NCBI GenBank assembly: GCA_001821395.1 | Contig: MHLM01000008.1 | Coordinates: forward strand, 1 to 31,115 | Reading direction: 5' to 3' | Length of the DNA stretch: 31,115 nt | Origin: Candidatus Lloydbacteria bacterium RIFCSPHIGHO2_02_FULL_50_18 | GTDB lineage: Bacteria; Patescibacteriota; Minisyncoccia; Phycocordibacterales; UBA6899 | In this document: positions 3,570 to 16,891 of the stretch, one piece after another | Layout: every line of letters starts with the position of its first letter | Position numbering within the stretch: the first letter of the stretch is position 1 | Notes under the pieces: model-generated | Told to the model about the DNA's origin: nothing | The model's database searches: none | What the model saw: the letters and a program-made list of their open reading frames with translations, nothing else | Program-made: the position numbers and the translations under genes

Positions 3570-4301
3570 TTAATTTTCTATGACGATGTCGTTCTTTCGT
3601 GTTGAGGCAAGTGAAAATGGAAGTGCGGCAAGAGAAAGGTTTCTCGGTTTTGTCATGAACGGCTTTGCGCCGAAATGCTCCGTATCCGCCGCATCGATCC
3701 GCTCTTCGAGCGCTCGTGCGATCTGTCTGTTGTCTATTTCCTGCTGCTCGAGTACGCCGTACACATACATGACCTTCTTTACATAACCGTAATCGGTCGA
3801 ATCATACTGCGAAAGCCAACGCTTTGCCCGTGACGGCCCCATGTTGTACGCAACAAGCGCCTCCTGAGGATTGTCAAAACCGTATCGACGCTCAAGTTCC
3901 TTGAGATACTTCGTTCCGGCGAGAATGTTCTGGAACGGATCCTTTGGGTTCTTGGCACCCATCGCCTTTGCGGTCTGAGGCATAAGCTGCATAAGTCCTT
4001 TTGCACCCTTATTCGATACCGCCACCTCGTTTCCTTCCGATTCGACCACGATGACCGCGGTGATCATTTTGGGGTCATAATCATGGAGCAGTGCTGCGAT
4101 ATTGATCATATCTCCGTACGAAGACTGGGTCTTCGCGACAAAATCGTCGGCATTATCTTGCAGGTACTGAGACGCTGCGCTCGCTGACGTTGGTAGAGAC
4201 CCCAATAACAAGAAAGTGAGAGCGAAGAGCATTTGGAGACGGGGTCGTAGTGACCCCTTCTGTTCACCGATGTCACTTACTTTTTGTATAGTTGTATTCA
4301 T
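3570..4301 (-). CDS. Lytic murein transglycosylase (SLT domain), secreted
   Basis: SLT catalytic motif ESEGNEVAVSNKGAKGLMQLMPQTA and a YNMGP motif. A signal peptide is present (MLFALTFLLLGSLPTSASA), so the true start may be the internal M at aa 24. Confidence 0.75.
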   Translation of the reverse strand: MNTTIQKVSDIGEQKGSLRPRLQMLFALTFLLLGSLPTSASAASQYLQDNADDFVAKTQSSYGDMINIAALLHDYDPKMITAVIVVESEGNEVAVSNKGAKGLMQLMPQTAKAMGAKNPKDPFQNILAGTKYLKELERRYGFDNPQEALVAYNMGPSRAKRWLSQYDSTDYGYVKKVMYVYGVLEQQEIDNRQIARALEERIDAADTEHFGAKPFMTKPRNLSLAALPFSLASTRKNDIVIEN

Positions 4302-6840: not shown

Positions 6841-6875
6841 ATTGAGGATTCATTCACACACAACAGGAGTACGAA

Positions 6876-7478
6876 ATGACACTCAATACACTCTCCCCCA
6901 ATGCCGTTGCTGCTGAAAAACAGGCAATGAAGAACTGGGTTCGGACCGTTCACAACTATCAACCGGGTGACGCATTTGCGAAAGAAGATTTTCTCGTTGA
7001 TGCATTCCGGGCGATCACAAGCCTTGTGCATTACCACAAAGGAAATCCGCTGGTCCAACAGGCTGTGCGTAACTACCCGGACCTCACCCCGCGCTGCTTC
7101 ACGATCCTGACCATTCTTCACGGCGCATACACTTCGGAGCCAAGCAAACGTTCGATCATGGACGACGTCATCGGGATGCTCGATAGCGACCTCGTCGAAC
7201 AGGAACTCGAAGCATGCACCTATGCAAAGAATGCGCGCGCTGGGGCGTTCTTCCCGGAACTTGTGAAGGTGATGGAGACCATTCGTAACGTATACGAGTC
7301 AAAATACCTCAGTCTCGACGCGCTGCCGCCGACGTCGCACCAAGCATATACACTATATGTGCTCAACTGCGCCGACAAACTCTCTCGGAAGGTGTGCGAA
7401 GAGGAGATGTATGGGCACTTGTCCGTTTACGCTGGCAAGTTTGAGAAGGTCCTCGACCTTGCAAAGCCTACCTCCTGA
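6876..7478 (+). CDS. Hypothetical cytoplasmic protein (200 aa), no recognisable domain
   Basis: ORF with good RBS AGGAGT 6 nt upstream. Composition is protein-like and there is no TM segment. It is convergent with the vWA gene. Confidence 0.55.
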   Translation: MTLNTLSPNAVAAEKQAMKNWVRTVHNYQPGDAFAKEDFLVDAFRAITSLVHYHKGNPLVQQAVRNYPDLTPRCFTILTILHGAYTSEPSKRSIMDDVIGMLDSDLVEQELEACTYAKNARAGAFFPELVKVMETIRNVYESKYLSLDALPPTSHQAYTLYVLNCADKLSRKVCEEEMYGHLSVYAGKFEKVLDLAKPTS

Positions 7479-9148: not shown

Positions 9149-9706
9149 CTATGAGACGATGTCCTCTTGAAGGAGGGGTATCGAAGCAAGTATCGTATAG
9201 CCGACTCCCCCTTGTTCAGGTGACAAAAAAAGCTGCACAGCATCGACGGTCATACTGAATTCGACGCGCTGCGCTATGTGGTGCGGCATGGATCGCTCTT
9301 GATCGTCTTTAGCACATCGGGCAATAGTGATATGGGGAATGAATGGCCGATGTTCCGGTATATCAAAAGCATCTGCAAGTATTCGCTCCAATGCAACGAG
9401 CTCGGGACTTGCCGCACATTCAATCCAGAGCAGTTTCGGACTATCATTATTCGGGCCACAGGCAAGACGATCGAGAGTAAGTGAAAACGGTTTTGTATTA
9501 CGAAGAGCGTCTTGCAACCGTTGAATGACCGCCCTTTCATCTGTGGTATTCCATGGGGTAACGAGCGTGAGGTGCATGTCCTCGGAAGGTATGAGCCGCA
9601 CATGCTCTCCCGCGACACAGGACTGCAATGCCGCACAATACTCCGCAAGAGGAGTGGAAACCTTGATACCCACGAATACACGCTTTGATAGTTTTTCGGT
9701 GTCCAT
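9149..9706 (-). CDS. 2H-phosphoesterase superfamily protein (RNA 2',3'-cyclic phosphodiesterase / 2'-5' RNA ligase LigT/ThpR-like)
   Basis: Two H-x-T/S-x motifs at the expected spacing (HLTLV and HITIAR) in a 185-aa protein. The overlapping 193-aa ORF 9274-9855 in another frame is Cys/Ser/Arg-rich and looks non-coding. Confidence 0.7.
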   Translation of the reverse strand: MDTEKLSKRVFVGIKVSTPLAEYCAALQSCVAGEHVRLIPSEDMHLTLVTPWNTTDERAVIQRLQDALRNTKPFSLTLDRLACGPNNDSPKLLWIECAASPELVALERILADAFDIPEHRPFIPHITIARCAKDDQERSMPHHIAQRVEFSMTVDAVQLFLSPEQGGVGYTILASIPLLQEDIVS

Positions 9707-11296: not shown

Positions 11297-12346
11297 GTGC
11301 ACAATCGTCAGTGATGGCGATTTTTTATTTGTGACTCTACAGAGAATTTCGCTCCCTACTGGAGCAGTGCGCCTTTGCGATTTACTCTGAATAAGAATTC
11401 TTCGTAAATAACACAAAGCCCTTCGATTCTCTGGCGAAAAGCAAGCAGTTGCTTTTCTTAAGGTCACAGACAAAAATGGCCACGCTTTCGCATGACTCAT
11501 TTTTGTTGCTGTGACCTTACAGAGAATCGGGGTCAACTCACATCAATATTTTATTCGTGCGGACACTCCAAAATATTGTGTGGTTCCTCCCCGGACTCGG
11601 CAACGCCCATCGACAGGCTCAGGGCGGCTTCGCGCCTCCGTCTTTCGATCATCTGCAAGGGCCCGGCAAATACTAAAAGCCCGATGCATTGCATCGGACT
11701 TAAAGTATTTGTGACCTTACAGAGAATCGAACTCTGATTTAAGCCTTGAGAAGGCTTCGTCCTAACCGTTAGACGATAAGGCCAATACGTAGTTGTGATA
11801 ATAACATTGAGTTCGATTCTATGGAACTCTGATTTCCGCCCTACTGGCGCAGTACACCTTTTCGATTTTTAAGAAAAAACCTGAAAAGGTCTTGTGAAGT
11901 GGGTCCCATCCCACTTCTCACCTTTCGAAGGCTTCGTCTCCCTAAAGGGACTTCCATTTTCTAAAACGGAATACCGTTAAGAAAATTTGATCGCTAACCG
12001 TTAGACGATAAGGCCAATACGTAGTTGTGATAATAACATTGAGTTCGATTCTATGGAACTCTGATTTCCTCCCTACAAACGGCAGCGAGGAGAAAAGGAA
12101 GCTCGCTTACTTTTTATCCGAGTGAACCGTTCGTATGTTTCATACAGGAGCTGTTCCCGATTGATTATCCGAGACCGTTCTCCCTGCCTGCGCAGGCAGG
12201 CGATAAGGCCAATGGACAGACAGCACTTTTAATCGAACTTCAAAAGAATAGCGAATTTGAGCCTATTTGTCTACCTCAAGGTTGACAATATTGAATATTC
12301 GTGTAGAATGGGAAATGAAGCAAGTCTTCGTATAAGGAGTTAGTTA
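11297..12346. repeat. ~1 kb ORF-free mosaic repeat region (modular direct and inverted repeats, many hairpins); candidate structured-RNA array or decayed cassette/MITE cluster
   Basis: There are three copies of ATTTGTGAC(C/T)(C/T)TACAGAGAAT at 11328, 11507 and 11709. A 76-bp perfect direct repeat occurs at 11762-11837 and 11994-12069. An inverted repeat pairs 11458-11478 with 11498-11519. There is a perfect 18-bp palindrome cctgcctgcgcaggcagg at about 12183-12200. A third partial copy gcgataaggccaat sits at 12199. Hairpin CTCC-CTACT-GGAG co-varies with CGCC-CTACT-GGCG. Confidence 0.7.
12279..12306 (+). promoter_or_regulatory. Strong sigma70-like promoter (TTGACA-16-TAGAAT)
   Basis: aagGTTGACAatattgaatattcgtgTAGAATggg, 40 nt upstream of the ATG at 12347. 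Confidence 0.55.
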
Positions 12347-12676
12347 ATGAAAAAAACACATCAACCCCGTTGGGAAGATGAATTTCGTGCACTCGTGCAC
12401 GAAGAGATAAAGAGAGAGATTACCGGTCAGAAAAAGCTGAATTCAGCTATCATCTGGTCAAGGAACCCTCTTTCTTTTGTTGATTCGGAGTCGAATAAAA
12501 AACTTCATGATTGCTGGAAATTCTTTCCTGATTGGCTGAAGAGGTATGACAGTACTTCGAGGAAGGGGTCGCTCGGTAGGTCGTGGGGGGCTCTTGTTGG
12601 CAGTACAAAGAAAAAAATTGCACTGGCATTCAAGAATCACTCTTCTCGACAACTGGGCGCAACGCCAAGAAAATAA
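12347..12676 (+). CDS. Hypothetical basic cytoplasmic protein (109 aa)
   Basis: Excellent RBS (tAAGGAGttagttaATG). No TM segment and no recognisable domain. Confidence 0.55.
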   Translation: MKKTHQPRWEDEFRALVHEEIKREITGQKKLNSAIIWSRNPLSFVDSESNKKLHDCWKFFPDWLKRYDSTSRKGSLGRSWGALVGSTKKKIALAFKNHSSRQLGATPRK

Positions 12677-12710
12677 ATTCGTTCTTTTCACAACATACAT
12701 AGGAGCCATA

Positions 12711-13151
12711 TTGAAATCAGCTGATAGTAAGACGCAGGCACACCCACGCAAGAAAGATCGCGAGACCTGTCTTCCGGAAAACTTTCCGCAGATCACCGCT
12801 CACGACGTGATCGACCGCACAAAGGTCTTCATTCTCGTCGTGCGCGGATTCGTCGGCGCACAGATCTTGATCGGGCCGTTTCAGGTCATCGGATCGCCAA
12901 AGCTGATCGCACACATGCCCCCATTTTGCGGGCACTACCGATTACGCGTGAGGATGATTGCTACCGATACGGAACAGTGCATCGTCGTGCCGACGGACGG
13001 ATTCGCGCAGATCTATGGAATGCAATACAGCCTGCACGAGTATCTCCCTCAAGCGAAAAAATATTTCGAACAATTCGACGCGAACGCGATCGCACTCGCG
13101 TCGATATTTCATTCTCAAGAGGCACGGAATAAGAACAAATATCTCAAATAA
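12711..13151 (+). CDS. Hypothetical protein (~146 aa) probably starting at TTG; second gene of a two-gene operon
   Basis: AGGAG sits 5 nt upstream of an in-frame TTG at 12711, directly after the stop of the preceding gene. The alternative ATG at 12546 would overlap that gene by 130 nt and adds an R/G-rich, non-protein-like N-terminus. Confidence 0.45.
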   Translation: MKSADSKTQAHPRKKDRETCLPENFPQITAHDVIDRTKVFILVVRGFVGAQILIGPFQVIGSPKLIAHMPPFCGHYRLRVRMIATDTEQCIVVPTDGFAQIYGMQYSLHEYLPQAKKYFEQFDANAIALASIFHSQEARNKNKYLK

Positions 13152-13162
13152 ATAGCTTATGC

Positions 13163-13192
13163 ATACCGCCTCTCACGAGGCGGTTTTTTTAT
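13163..13192 (+). terminator. Rho-independent terminator
   Basis: ccgcctc-tcac-gaggcgg hairpin followed by ttttttt. Confidence 0.65.
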
Positions 13193-13199
13193 CTCAATA

Positions 13200-14552
13200 C
13201 TATCGCTGTGTCCATTCGTCCTCCTGGCGAACAAGCTTCGATCTTGCTTCTTCAGGATGCGCCATGAGCACCTTTACTGCGCGCTCCATGCGGATTATAT
13301 TTTCTCCGCCCCCCTGCGAACCCTTTGCTAGGATGACATCGCCGCGTTCAAGTATCGAGAGCATAAATTCCCCTGCTTCGTCGGAAGTCGCAAATTCATG
13401 AATACAGCCTTGGGGCAGACCCGATGACTTTGCCGCTTCGGCGATCCATCGCGCGCGCTTCCCGACGGTGACGAGCTCATCAACAAATGCTCCTGCAAGA
13501 CGCCCCGCCTTCCAGTGTTCCTCCTCGGAATACGTTCCGAGCTCAAGCATGTCGCCGAGCATGGCGATCCTCCTTTTTCCCGTAATGTCACGCAGAGCGG
13601 CAAGTGCGGCCGATAGAGCAATAGGTGAAGAGTTGTAAGTATCATCAATGATAGTTGACCCGTTCTTGCCCTCAATCACGCGCATGCGACCCGGTGGTGT
13701 TTCAAGGTGAAAGAGCGCTTCGGTCATGCGGAAAAATGAGAGCCCGCGCGCGATACCAACCGCAAGCGCGGCAAGTGCCGCGGTGCAGGACTGAACGCCC
13801 AAAACACCGTTCAAATAGACAGGAAATGTTTCATCCTCCCAGGTGACATCAAACTGCATGCCGACCGGAGCATCAACACCCTCGTTCTTCGCATAGCGTA
13901 CCTTCGGAGACAAACCCTGAAGTTTTGCGCGCCTCCCAAAGCCGTAGGTGAGCGAGCGCAGTTTGCGCTTGTCGGTCTCGTCGGTGAGGAGGTATGCGTG
14001 TTCGTCATCTGCGTTCGCAATGTACACGCCACCCTCACGTAATGCCTGGGTGACGAGGGCGTCTTCTCTTCTGATGGACTCGGGTGATTCAAAATTCTCG
14101 ACGTGCACAGGCACTTGTGGGAGACAGGTCACAACGGCGATATCCGGCGTCAACCACTTCATGAGCCGCGCAATGTCGCCGGGATGATCGGAACCGACTT
14201 CGAGCACAAGAAGTTTGGGGTAGGATTGCGCTCGAGGAACACGAAAGCCGAGCCAGATGTTCTTGAGCCACGCGAGCGGACTACTCCAGGCATTCTCAAG
14301 CCCGAGTATCGTGAGCGGCACACCGATCTCGCTGTTGAAACTTTTTTCGCTCTTGCGCGTTGCGATGCTGTCTTTAAGTACGTGATAGACAGCGTCCTTA
14401 GTGGTCGTCTTCCCTACCGAACCCGAAACGAGCACGATGAACGGCCGCCACGTTTTGAGTACGCGCCTTGCTTCCCAGGTGAGGATAAAGACAATGACGG
14501 TTTTGAAAAATGTACGCATGATGATCTCTTGTTTGTACCGCAAAATCTGCAT
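13200..14552 (-). CDS. murF: UDP-N-acetylmuramoyl-tripeptide--D-alanyl-D-alanine ligase (Mur ligase family, MurF-like)
   Basis: P-loop VSGSVGKTTTKD and an IIDDTYNSSP motif, at the head of a dcw cluster. The true start may be the internal MRTFF (aa 12). Confidence 0.75.
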   Translation of the reverse strand: MQILRYKQEIIMRTFFKTVIVFILTWEARRVLKTWRPFIVLVSGSVGKTTTKDAVYHVLKDSIATRKSEKSFNSEIGVPLTILGLENAWSSPLAWLKNIWLGFRVPRAQSYPKLLVLEVGSDHPGDIARLMKWLTPDIAVVTCLPQVPVHVENFESPESIRREDALVTQALREGGVYIANADDEHAYLLTDETDKRKLRSLTYGFGRRAKLQGLSPKVRYAKNEGVDAPVGMQFDVTWEDETFPVYLNGVLGVQSCTAALAALAVGIARGLSFFRMTEALFHLETPPGRMRVIEGKNGSTIIDDTYNSSPIALSAALAALRDITGKRRIAMLGDMLELGTYSEEEHWKAGRLAGAFVDELVTVGKRARWIAEAAKSSGLPQGCIHEFATSDEAGEFMLSILERGDVILAKGSQGGGENIIRMERAVKVLMAHPEEARSKLVRQEDEWTQR

Positions 14553-16670: not shown

Positions 16671-16891
16671 GATAATCAGGCCATGAATCTTATACGCTCA
16701 CGAATAATGAAGAACCGTCCGCGGCGAGGAGCGGTAGATTTTACAAAACGAGAACGAACCGCAATGGGCACATAGCGGTCTATCGTAGCACGATAGGTGA
16801 TCAGTAATTTAGTCATAGTGTAAGGAACGATGATCCTCTGTTGAAATGGCGTTCAAAGAGAAACATTGGCATGATAAAACTTGATAAACTT

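What the first reader, a model, noticed from the sequence alone, without database searches (positions are those of the whole stretch)
11297..12346. About 1 kb of ORF-free mosaic repeat DNA with co-varying hairpins: candidate array of small structured RNAs or decayed cassette cluster
The genome here is otherwise tightly packed (4-nt overlaps, 26-bp gaps), so a 1,050-bp stretch with no credible ORF stands out. It is built from shuffled modules: three copies of ATTTGTGAC(C/T)(C/T)TACAGAGAAT at 11328, 11507 and 11709, spaced about 180-200 bp apart. It has a 76-bp perfectly identical direct repeat (11762-11837 = 11994-12069) whose flanks then diverge completely. It has further partial copies of sub-modules: gaaggcttcgtc at 11751 and 11928, and gcgataaggccaat at 12199. 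It has a roughly 20-bp inverted repeat (ttaaggtcacagacaaaaatg paired with catttttgttgctgtgacctta) around a 19-nt loop. It has a perfect 18-bp palindrome (cctgcctgcgcaggcagg). It also has many 5-7 bp hairpins: cagag-aatcgaa-ctctg, gagttc-gattctatg-gaactc, aagtggg-tcccatc-ccactt and agcctt-gag-aaggct. One small hairpin changes compensatorily between copies. CTCC-CTACT-GGAG sits at 11345 and CGCC-CTACT-GGCG at 11838, both followed by the same cag-t-c-cctttt-cgattt tail. That is what selection on RNA structure rather than on a protein would look like. Perfect 76-bp identity next to diverged flanks suggests recent recombination or gene conversion. I cannot place it in a known RNA family from sequence alone. 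I see no tRNA, CRISPR repeat/spacer geometry, RT or transposase nearby.
Basis: seen in the sequence. Interest (0 to 1): 0.8.

Follow-up and report, generated by a model that had tools for sequence, protein, structure and literature searches.

The report
tRNA-Glu gene nested in structured-RNA repeats
The "ORF-free mosaic" is a glutamate tRNA gene surrounded by partial copies of itself, and these carry a previously uncatalogued, strongly conserved 86-nt folded RNA module that recurs beside tRNA genes in many uncultured groundwater bacteria.

Summary
The repeats and hairpins are real and reproduce 100% in four independent assemblies. Nearly every "module" is a piece of that tRNA: 5' pieces upstream, 3' pieces (from the T-loop) downstream, and some inverted. 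Between the pieces lie conserved structured cores. It matches no Rfam 15 family. At least 119 metagenome loci carry it and viral contigs do not. In 120 distinct sequences 95% of stem cells pair, 29 of 30 pairs show compensatory changes, and G-U outnumbers A-C 190 to 40, so it is an RNA read from the tRNA strand. It is enriched next to tRNA genes. It often abuts an exact copy of part of the neighbouring tRNA (Glu, Ser, Gly, Val, Ile). A second core, "d", bracketed by inverted and direct tRNA 3' ends, forms a lineage-specific 200-nt insertion. Best reading: a tRNA locus built up by repeated insertion and duplication at the anticodon loop and T-loop, carrying functional RNA modules co-transcribed with the tRNA and homogenised by gene conversion. 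Function is unknown, and no recombinase is associated.

The parts
12245..12273 (-). Promoter-like site TAGACA-17-TATTCT pointing into units X, Y and the tRNA. It is back to back with the + strand promoter (12282-12309) of the next gene.
   Evidence: The same box (TAGACA/TGGACA ... TATTCT/TACTCT/TATCCT) is conserved upstream of tRNA-Glu in L012, L013, L014 and L137.
12016..12210 (-). Unit X, a degenerate interrupted tRNA-Glu copy. In order: tRNA positions 1-10 (12210-12201); the 18-nt palindrome (12202-12185); a ~115-nt insert with no homologue; a remnant of c helix P3; tRNA 44-55 (12067-12056); an inverted T-arm piece (12052-12041); a spacer.
11784..12015 (-). Unit Y, an interrupted tRNA-Glu copy. 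In order: tRNA 1-22 (12015-11994); the palindromic insert I1 (11993-11939); tRNA 23-34 (11938-11927); module c; tRNA 44-55 (11835-11824); an inverted T-arm piece (11820-11809); a spacer.
   Evidence: The whole arrangement is conserved in L013 (81% over 232 nt), L137 and L127.
11837..11922 (-). Module c, an 86-nt three-hairpin structured RNA: GGUGAG-P1-CAAGACCUU-P2-AAGGUGUACUG-P3 (CGCC AGUAG GGCG).
   Evidence: Covariance-model score 100.8 bits. Fold z-score -4.3. Covariation over 120 distinct sequences. G-U 190 against A-C 40. No Rfam family matches.
11711..11783 (-). Intact tRNA-Glu, anticodon CUC.
   Evidence: ARAGORN. Rfam RF00005 61.5 bits. Orthologues 96-97% identical in L012-L015.
11677..11701 (-). 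Intrinsic-terminator-like hairpin plus T run immediately after the tRNA. It is part of the lineage-specific insertion.
   Evidence: Absent from L013, L014 and L015, where the tRNA runs straight into the sequence that begins at window 11510.
11511..11676 (-). Downstream unit D1. In order: a degenerate inverted tRNA 3' part (about 11667-11644); the c-less 'module d' core (11646-11531; GAAAGACGGAGG...CCGAGUCCGGGG...GUUGACC); a direct copy of tRNA 55-73 (11529-11511). Together with the new trailer and terminator this is a ~200-nt window-specific insertion with a 19-nt direct repeat.
11468..11510 (-). Ancestral tRNA trailer and bidirectional terminator (A-tract, hairpin 11496-11479, T-tract). Its outer arms are the displaced tRNA 3' end and an inverted copy of it (11467-11459).
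   Evidence: (I4). 96% identical to the trailer that directly follows the tRNA in L013.
11323..11470 (-). Downstream unit D2 ('Z type'). In order: inverted acceptor 3' strand; hairpin H (11457-11436); inverted T-arm (CCAGAGAAUCGAAG); two hairpins P2' and P3' (P3' = CUCC AGUAG GGAG, 11364-11352); a direct tRNA 3' part (about 57-73, 11348-11326). It folds as one closed cloverleaf-like unit.
   Evidence: Fold z-score -4.6, and -7.9 for the L014 orthologue. Weak covariance-model match at E = 1e-3. Conserved in L013, L014 and L015.
11762..11844 (.). Copy 1 of the 83-nt near-perfect repeat. It holds the end of c, tRNA 44-55, the inverted T piece, the spacer and tRNA 1-22. Copy 2 is 11994-12076.
   Evidence: D1: 99% identity, spacing 232.

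Best explanation
SHOWN.
- The interval is the tRNA-Glu(CUC) locus of a Lloydbacteria-like CPR/Patescibacteria genome, read on the minus strand.
- A conserved promoter leads through a ~460-nt leader, where simpler relatives have a leader of about 50-70 nt. The leader is made of two interrupted partial copies of the same tRNA (X and Y).
- Y carries an 86-nt three-hairpin module, c, placed after tRNA position 34.
- The intact tRNA and a terminator follow.
- Then come two closed units. Each is bracketed by an inverted and a direct copy of the tRNA 3' part, starting in the T-loop.
- Module c is a true structured RNA on the tRNA strand. It is widespread, present in several old paralogous copies per locus, and absent from Rfam.

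INFERRED MECHANISM.
- The locus grew by repeated insertion and duplication events. These broke a tRNA copy at the anticodon loop or T-loop, left the displaced tRNA piece as a flanking repeat, and kept or brought in one intact tRNA.
- Adjacent copies are then homogenised by gene conversion. This explains the 83-bp perfect repeat, and why the 5' fragments track each genome's own acceptor-stem variant.
- Modules c and d are retained because they act as RNAs made from the tRNA transcription unit. RNase P cleavage at the tRNA 5' end would release leader RNAs. The downstream units have acceptor/T-like closing helices that mimic tRNA minihelices.
- Their molecular partner is unknown.
For: - The tRNA and the fragment map.
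- Real assembly.
- Ancestral layout (promoter, short leader, tRNA, terminator) in L012, L014 and L015. Y-type unit present in L013, L127 and L137.
- Window-specific 200-nt insertion with a 19-nt direct repeat starting in the T-loop.
- Module c: 11 of 30 compensatory pairs in 4 sequences. In 120 distinct sequences, 95% of cells pair against 70% in shuffles and 38-52% with slid partners; 29 of 30 pairs show double changes; 0 of 500 shuffles reach the observed values.
- A conserved U-G pair in 100 of 115 sequences, and G-U 190 against A-C 40.
- At least 119 metagenome loci; none in viral contigs.
- 32 of 122 copies lie within 150 nt of a tRNA.
- Exact 17-47-nt copies of the neighbouring tRNA's 5' part abut c for Ser, Gly, Val, Ile and Glu.
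- D-unit architecture with Tyr, Ser, Leu and Thr tRNAs.
- Copies within a locus are 25-64% identical, with one-to-one orthologues at 86-89% elsewhere.
- Promoter and terminators.
- Closed folds.
Against: - There are no transcript data, so transcription and processing are inferred from sequence signals only.
- The downstream units lie after terminators, so their expression would need read-through or their own promoters.
- The interrupted upstream copies lack a 3' acceptor strand, so they cannot be tRNA-like processing substrates themselves.
- 64% of c copies have no detectable intact tRNA within 700 nt, and there is no universal closing stem.
- No enzyme that could make the insertions was found.
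- The window's D1 unit matches module d only at motif level and is the most divergent member.
- The c alignment was fitted to the model, which inflates pairing somewhat.
Confidence: 0.5

Rival explanations
1. Scars of small, non-autonomous, tRNA-gene-targeting integrative elements. Each unit entered by site-specific recombination in the T-loop or anticodon loop and carried a replacement tRNA segment or a whole tRNA. The displaced tRNA piece stayed as an att-like direct repeat. Modules c and d are the elements' cis-acting sites, recognised as folded RNA or single-stranded DNA by a recombinase encoded elsewhere. They serve the element, not the cell.
For: - Presence/absence polymorphism with a 19-nt direct repeat that starts in the T-loop.
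- Tandem arrays of units, each ending in a tRNA 3' part (L022 x2, L019 x3, window x2).
- In L020 the inner intact tRNA differs from the outer fragments in both acceptor strands, as if brought in.
- Nested insertions: I1 in L137, and c inside a Z-type unit in L059.
- Breakpoints match the classical anticodon-loop and T-loop sublocations of tRNA-targeting integrases (own knowledge: Williams 2002, Nucleic Acids Res).
Against: - No integrase, transposase, reverse transcriptase or endonuclease recurs within 3 kb of about 115 loci, and none is among the window's neighbours.
- Units are 150-250 nt, far below known integrative elements.
- Copies are old and divergent with one-to-one orthologues, not near-identical as for active repeats.
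- c is always in the sense orientation of its host RNA and shows G-U asymmetry, so it behaves as an RNA.
- Absent from viral contigs.
- The inverted tRNA copies are not a feature of att sites.
Confidence: 0.3
2. One reading: an array of several independent small structured RNA genes, or a decayed cassette cluster, each hairpin module being its own unit.
For: - Module c is a true conserved structured RNA.
- D2 folds as a self-contained unit.
- Several terminator-like hairpins lie in the interval: 8 found against 1.4 expected.
Against: - Most 'modules' are fragments of one tRNA gene.
- Only one promoter-like site on that strand.
- No cassette or attC, CRISPR or integron geometry.
- Unit X's insert and the D1 body have no BLAST-level homologues.
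Confidence: 0.1
3. Neutral debris: pseudo-tRNA fragments and hairpins produced by replication slippage and template switching at the palindromic T-arm, with no function. The conservation of c would reflect hitch-hiking with tRNA genes and gene conversion.
For: - Snap-back junctions: tRNA 44-55 followed by an inverted copy of 50-61.
- Gene conversion is evident.
- The interrupted copies cannot make tRNAs.
Against: - Neutral sequence would not keep 95% pairing with 29 of 30 compensatory pairs, plus invariant unpaired blocks, across lineages whose MurF is only 58% identical.
- c also occurs away from tRNAs.
Confidence: 0.07
4. A frameshifted protein-coding gene, or a misassembled repeat.
For: Mechanical ORFs of 67-111 aa exist.
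Against: - No Pfam match.
- Identical sequence in four independent assemblies.
- Orthologous regions contain the same tRNA and RNA modules, not a gene.
Confidence: 0.01

Closest known systems
tRNA-gene-targeting integrative elements and their att scars (tyrosine-integrase islands, with anticodon-loop and T-loop sublocations)
   Same: Direct repeats of the tRNA 3' part that start in the T-loop. One intact tRNA is kept. Tandem accumulation of units beside the tRNA. Lineage-specific presence or absence.
   Different: Units are only 150-250 nt with no integrase or cargo. 5' fragments also occur upstream. Inverted copies of the tRNA 3' part bracket the cores. The cores are structured RNAs under purifying selection.
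Group I introns in Patescibacteria tRNA genes (PMC13011429)
   Same: Same phylum. Structured RNA interrupting tRNA genes in or near the anticodon loop (34/35 here, 35/36 there). Sense orientation only. Mostly no homing endonuclease.
   Different: c is 86 nt with no group I core and no RF00028 match. Removing c does not restore a tRNA. The interrupted copies are truncated and an intact copy sits beside them.
R2 retrotransposon 5' self-cleaving ribozyme, co-transcribed with its host rRNA gene (PMC3414825, abstract)
   Same: A compact structured RNA with a sharp 5' boundary, at the junction between a truncated host RNA gene and the inserted sequence, in the sense orientation, with arbitrary upstream sequence.
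   Different: No reverse transcriptase or ORF. No HDV-like or other ribozyme family match. Self-cleavage is untested. Copies are ancient paralogues.
tRNA-linked small RNAs (spacer-derived sRNAs, tRNA-like scaffolds such as bacterial YrlA Y RNAs, the tmRNA tRNA-like domain)
   Same: Structured RNA made from a tRNA transcription unit, or closed by an acceptor/T-arm-like helix that tRNA-processing enzymes could recognise.
   Different: No sequence or model match to YrlA, tmRNA or any Rfam family. The closing helix is a perfect inverted repeat of the local tRNA 3' part, not a conserved tRNA-like domain.

Membership tests
tRNA (Rfam RF00005) | The cloverleaf covariance model scores above the gathering threshold and an anticodon can be assigned. 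| tested here: met
   61.5 bits against 29, full length 1-71. ARAGORN calls tRNA-Glu(CUC) at 11711-11783 on the minus strand.
tRNA (Rfam RF00005) | Orthologous gene conserved in related genomes at the syntenic site. | tested here: met
   96-97% identical tRNA-Glu(CUC) downstream of murF in L013, L014, L015 and L137.
Any described RNA family (Rfam 15, 4227 models), for module c | A match at or near a family's gathering score. | tested here: not met
   Nothing over 11837-11922 even at E <= 10 except a chance XIST_intron hit at 18 bits. None at c in 16 other loci.
Group I intron in a tRNA gene | Group I catalytic core (RF00028). | tested here: not met
   No RF00028 match in the window. The model does detect real group I introns elsewhere, in L019 and L040.
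Group I intron in a tRNA gene | Flanking exons join to give an intact tRNA. | tested here: not met
   Y has positions 1-34 and 44-55 only, plus a second insert at 22/23, and lacks 56-73. The L057, L100, L120 and L028 copies are also truncated.
Integrase-borne genomic island at a tRNA gene | Direct repeat of the tRNA 3' part flanking the insert, with the crossover in the T-loop or anticodon loop. | tested here: met
   19-nt repeat of tRNA 55-73 flanking the 181-nt window-specific segment. Further 3' fragments start at positions 54-58 in L009, L020, L022 and L028.
Integrase-borne genomic island at a tRNA gene | Integrase or recombinase gene inside or next to the insert. | tested here: not met
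   Pfam on ten flanking window proteins gave no recombinase. No recurrent protein within 3 kb of c in about 115 loci.
MITE / dispersed repeat | Many near-identical copies dispersed in the genome, in either orientation. | tested here: not met
   Copies within a locus are 25-64% identical with closer orthologues in other genomes. Only one full copy in the 31-kb window. c is always sense to its host RNA. Whole-genome copy number could not be counted.
CRISPR array / integron cassette array | Regular repeat-spacer period or attC-bounded cassettes, with cas or intI nearby. | tested here: not met
   Repeat spacings are irregular: 180, 200, 232 and 195. The only CRISPR-like hit is the palindrome at 17 bits against a gathering score of 35. 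No cas or intI among the neighbours.
Known self-cleaving ribozymes (hammerhead, HDV-like, twister, twister-sister, hatchet, pistol) | Match to the family model. | tested here: not met
   No such Rfam hit at E <= 10.
Known self-cleaving ribozymes (hammerhead, HDV-like, twister, twister-sister, hatchet, pistol) | Site-specific self-cleavage. | not testable with these tools
   Needs in vitro transcription of c with its flanks.
tmRNA, including permuted forms | tRNA-Ala-like ends plus a tag reading frame. | tested here: not met
   ARAGORN finds no tmRNA in the window, and Rfam finds none.

The most novel reading that the evidence does not exclude
Module c, with module d and the tRNA-derived guide-like flanks, is the RNA component of a previously unknown RNA-based system specific to CPR bacteria. 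It could be a new small ribozyme or processing element that frees itself and the downstream tRNA from interrupted host tRNA transcripts, i.e. an intron-like or R2-ribozyme-like selfish RNA that lives in tRNA genes without a protein of its own. Or it could be a common protein-binding scaffold fused to tRNA-matching segments that targets specific tRNAs through their 3' halves.
Probability: 0.2. Interest if true: 0.85.

Novelty: new variant of a known kind. Interest (0 to 1): 0.68.

Why it matters
CPR/Patescibacteria have tiny genomes with little non-coding DNA. Even so, this lineage keeps a kilobase of tRNA-derived repeats and structured RNA at one tRNA gene, and the same modules recur at tRNA genes of many identities across environmental genomes.

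An 86-nt RNA with this much covariation and invariant unpaired sequence almost certainly has a conserved partner. It matches no Rfam 15 family, and full-text literature searches found no description.

Working out what it does could expose a new layer of tRNA gene evolution or tRNA precursor processing in a large and poorly understood part of the bacterial tree. It could also reveal a new kind of protein-less genetic element.

In practice, the motif explains 'gene-free' gaps and assembly breaks beside tRNA genes in CPR genome bins. It also gives annotators a covariance model to add.

Tried and rejected
- **Phage or plasmid origin.** No megablast match of 12 kb to 50,697 phage records. The neighbours are the dcw cluster: MurF, FtsI, FtsL, RsmH.
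- **RNase P RNA.** Some upstream sequences read GAAAGUCGGAG, which resembles the P4 strand. No RNase P, SRP, 6S or tmRNA hit appeared at gathering or at E <= 1 in 16 loci. The units occur in tandem and are bracketed by tRNA repeats.
- **c as a general T-loop insertion.** Only 5 of 93 copies have the T-stem complement after P3, against 1.3 expected.
- **A universal closing stem around c.** 9 of 93 copies fall beyond the 5% control quantile.
- **A conserved downstream motif (TGTGAC).** Only 7 of 105 copies have it. It turned out to be the 3' end of module d in one sub-family.
- **A recurrent neighbouring protein (autonomous form).** None found.
- **c derived from the Patescibacteria tRNA group I introns.** The model for c does not hit the introns present in L019 and L040.
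- **Recently active transposon.** Rejected by the divergence between paralogues.
- **Two viral pattern hits (L010, L011).** Chance matches inside coding sequence.
- **Closest relatives.** L135 (MurF 90%) and L008 (82%) end before the region. L136 (67%) has no tRNA-Glu at the site.
- **By-eye comparison of c and d with hammerhead, HDV-like and group II domain 5 architectures.** No fit was found; this was not a formal test.
Full report
**What the window is.** The flanking genes are housekeeping genes: MurF, FtsI, FtsL, RsmH and MraZ on one side, and a LigT-family protein, a VWA protein and glycosyltransferases on the other. An exact-protein look-up places the window on contig MHLI01000016.1 of GCA_001818945.1, a groundwater metagenome-assembled genome. 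Its nearest named relatives are Candidatus Lloydbacteria, in the CPR/Patescibacteria. There is no match to phage records.

**Checking the observation.** The perfect 76-bp repeat extends to 83 nt with one mismatch (11762-11844 and 11994-12076). The 1.9 kb around the region is 100% identical in four independent assemblies, and three short-read contigs break inside the 83-bp repeat. So the arrangement is real and not a misassembly. The three mechanical ORFs in the interval have no Pfam match.

ARAGORN and Rfam both find an intact tRNA-Glu(CUC) at 11711-11783 on the minus strand, at 61.5 bits against a gathering score of 29. Mapping every 9-mer or longer of that tRNA onto the region shows that the "shuffled modules" are pieces of it. 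Read 5' to 3' on the minus strand they are:
- tRNA 1-10 at 12210-12201
- tRNA 44-55 at 12067-12056
- tRNA 1-22 at 12015-11994
- tRNA 23-34 at 11938-11927
- tRNA 44-55 at 11835-11824
- the intact gene
- tRNA 55-73 at 11529-11511
- a variant of tRNA 57-73 at about 11348-11326

Inverted pieces of the T-arm and acceptor 3' strand lie at 12041-12052, 11809-11820, 11422-11433 and 11459-11467. The 76-bp repeat contains tRNA positions 1-22 plus the spacer before it.

**Comparison with relatives.** I fetched relatives through MurF homologues.
- In L012, L014 and L015 the locus is simple: a conserved promoter box, a leader of about 50-70 nt, tRNA-Glu(CUC), then an A-tract/hairpin/T-tract terminator.
- In L013, L137 and L127 an interrupted partial tRNA-Glu copy lies upstream of the intact gene, as in the window. 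L013 matches window 11938-11710 at 81% over 232 nt.
- L137 shares even the I1 insert at position 22/23.
- In L013-L015 the tRNA 3' end runs directly into the sequence that begins at window 11510, at 96% identity in L013.
- So window 11710-11530, plus a 19-nt duplication of tRNA 55-73, is a lineage-specific ~200-nt insertion whose junction lies in the T-loop.
- The last unit (11470-11323) is conserved in L013-L015.
- In each genome the 5' fragment carries that genome's own acceptor variant: GGCCCTA in L137, and GGCCTTA in the window and L013. Together with the 83-bp perfect repeat, which includes non-tRNA spacer, this indicates gene conversion between neighbouring copies.

**Module c.**
- The stretch between tRNA fragments 23-34 and 44-55 (11922-11837) matched a distant relative, L009 (MurF 58%), at 80%, with differences falling as compensatory changes in three hairpins.
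- Four full copies gave a consensus fold with 11 of 30 pairs compensatory. Single-sequence z-scores were -3.0 to -4.3.
- No Rfam 15 family matches it, even at E <= 10.
It hit no viral contig.
- A covariance model recovered 122 copies in the 99 sources searched in that run (96 metagenome loci plus the window, L009 and L013), many loci holding two or three, and 32 more in a second set of 30 loci.
- On 120 distinct sequences, 95% of stem cells pair, against 70% in shuffles and 38-52% with slid partners. 29 of 30 pairs have changes on both sides. None of 500 shuffles reach the observed values.
- One pair is U-G in 100 of 115 sequences. Overall G-U cells outnumber A-C cells 190 to 40. So the structure belongs to the strand that also encodes the tRNA, as expected for an RNA.
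- The consensus is GuGAG-P1-cgCAAGACcUU-P2-aAAgGUGUACnG-P3, with the P3 loop CuGUAaG.

**Association with tRNA genes.**
- 32 of 122 copies lie within 150 nt of a detectable tRNA. My rough expectation for random sites in a ~1 Mb genome with about 45 tRNAs is 2%.
- Where an intact tRNA follows c by 30-90 nt, c is usually preceded by an exact copy of that tRNA's 5' part. Examples are Ser 1-17 (L009), Gly 1-52 (L057), Ile 1-24 (L120), Ser about 1-45 (L028), Val (L100) and Glu 1-34/40 (window, L013, L127, L137).
- After c the tRNA often resumes for a few nucleotides and then breaks off.
- In L020 the far-downstream 3' fragment matches the acceptor stem of the interrupted outer copy, not that of the intact inner tRNA. 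So an entire replacement tRNA sits inside an older gene.

**The downstream units.** After tRNA-Tyr (L022), Ser (L017, L028), Leu (L043) and Thr (L019, three tandem copies) lie units built in this order:
1. An inverted copy of the tRNA 3' part, often split by a small conserved hairpin H.
2. A core, "module d": GAAAGnCGGAG, a hairpin, CGAGUCGG, GGUCGCGAG, a hairpin, CUUGUGACC.
3. A direct copy of the tRNA 3' part, beginning in the T-loop.

Module c can sit inside d (CGAGnCGG|c|CGAGAGCACUU) or inside a Z-type unit (L059). Eight c-less d cores share invariant blocks, and 6 of 13 predicted pairs are compensatory. The window's 11646-11531 has the blocks but is the most divergent member. The window's last unit folds as one closed cloverleaf-like structure, with z = -4.6, and -7.9 for its L014 orthologue.

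**Mobile or resident?**
- No protein family recurs within 3 kb of c: the largest cluster covers 4 of about 115 loci and holds unrelated housekeeping genes.
- Copies within a locus are 25-64% identical, and each has a closer counterpart in another genome. For example, the two L108 copies match the two L052 copies at 86-89%. These are old paralogues under purifying selection, not a recently active repeat.
- Even so, insertion-like polymorphisms with sharp ends exist: the window's 200-nt unit, I1 and its nested insert in L137, and c inside different host RNAs.
- c is always in the sense orientation of its host RNA.

**Transcription signals.** On the minus strand there is one promoter-like site (12273-12245), conserved in relatives. 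There are two strong terminator-like hairpins: at 11701-11677, right after the tRNA, and at 11496-11479, the ancestral one. X, Y and c therefore lie in the 5' leader of the tRNA precursor. The two downstream units lie beyond terminators.

**Interpretation.**
- *Shown:* a tRNA-Glu locus with nested partial tRNA copies, breakpoints at the anticodon loop (34/35) and T-loop (55-57), gene conversion, and two conserved structured RNA cores. One of them is a widespread uncatalogued motif.
- *Inferred (about 0.5):* the modules act as RNAs made from the tRNA transcription unit, and the tRNA-derived flanks are by-products of how copies arise and are maintained.
- *Main rival (about 0.3):* these are scars of tiny non-autonomous tRNA-targeting integrative elements whose cis sites are c and d.
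- The two readings are not exclusive.
- A full-text search found only full-length group I introns in Patescibacteria tRNAs (PMC13011429), which differ in size, core and exon integrity. Nothing describes this motif or architecture.

**Limits.**
- There are no expression data.
- Whole-genome copy numbers could not be counted.
- The chance expectations for tRNA proximity and pattern hits are my own estimates.
- The large alignment was fitted to the model.
- Assigning the window's D1 unit to module d rests on motifs and architecture, not on BLAST-level similarity.

Noticed in passing
window 9149-9706 (-): A LigT / 2'-5' RNA ligase (2H phosphoesterase) family gene lies 1.6 kb from the tRNA-fragment region (PF13563, 1.8e-20). 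Any link to RNA end-healing or processing of these units is untested.
   Followed up: no
window 16676-16816 (-): A small conserved ORF of 46 aa (MTKLLITYRATIDRYVPIAVRSR...FFIIRERIRF) lies between rsmH and ftsL, with a clear homologue at the same place in L009. It appears uncalled in the NCBI assembly; the 45-aa gene calls in L015 and L135 may correspond to it.
   Followed up: partly
window 11939-11993 (-); L013 12197-12242; L137 about 4102-4228: I1 is an insert with a ~40-nt imperfect palindrome core (AAATTTTCTTAACGG-TATT-CCGTTTTAGAAAATG), inserted at tRNA position 22/23 of unit Y. The same element occurs in the opposite orientation inside hairpin H of L013, and carries a further ~60-nt nested insertion in L137. 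It behaves like a tiny hairpin insertion element.
   Followed up: partly
window 11436-11457 (-); also L014, L021, L022, L059, L060: A small conserved hairpin 'H' (AGCAAACUGCUUUGCU, outer pairs co-varying) recurs between the inverted acceptor and inverted T-arm segments of the downstream units.
   Followed up: partly
window 12185-12202: The perfect 18-nt palindrome CCTGCCTGCGCAGGCAGG directly follows the tRNA 1-10 fragment of unit X. It and the ~115-nt insert after it have no homologue in about 130 loci.
   Followed up: partly
L019 about 6860-7200: Three identical tandem copies (period 137 nt) of a c-less module-d unit follow tRNA-Thr(GGU). Each ends with the tRNA 3' part.
   Followed up: partly
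L019 1326-1559 (-); L040 5268-5519 (-): Full group I introns (RF00028, 72.6 and 60.5 bits) lie within a few kb of c copies. A LAGLIDADG-like ORF sits near the one in L040. They are unrelated in sequence to c.
   Followed up: partly
L052 146-389; L108 161-401; L060 4063-4286: Head-to-head pairs of diverged c copies lie only 26-53 nt apart on opposite strands and are conserved as pairs between genomes (L052 and L108). This leaves no room for separate upstream promoters.
   Followed up: no
L009 7608-7695: ARAGORN calls tRNA-Ser(GGA) here, but the Rfam gathering-threshold scan of L009 returned no tRNA. This is a discrepancy between tools.
   Followed up: no
window 12245-12309: Back-to-back promoter-like sites: minus strand TAGACA-17-TATTCT for the tRNA unit, and plus strand TTGACA-16-TAGAAT (11 of 12 matches) for the 109-aa ORF at 12347.
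   Followed up: partly
L014 about 12190-14468: After murF, L014 has a stretch of about 2.7 kb (11754-14468) with no called gene. It contains the tRNA-Glu locus and then a possible uncalled pilin-like ORF start (…RGFTLVELIVVIAIISLL… near 12390). Only the first 760 nt were read.
   Followed up: no
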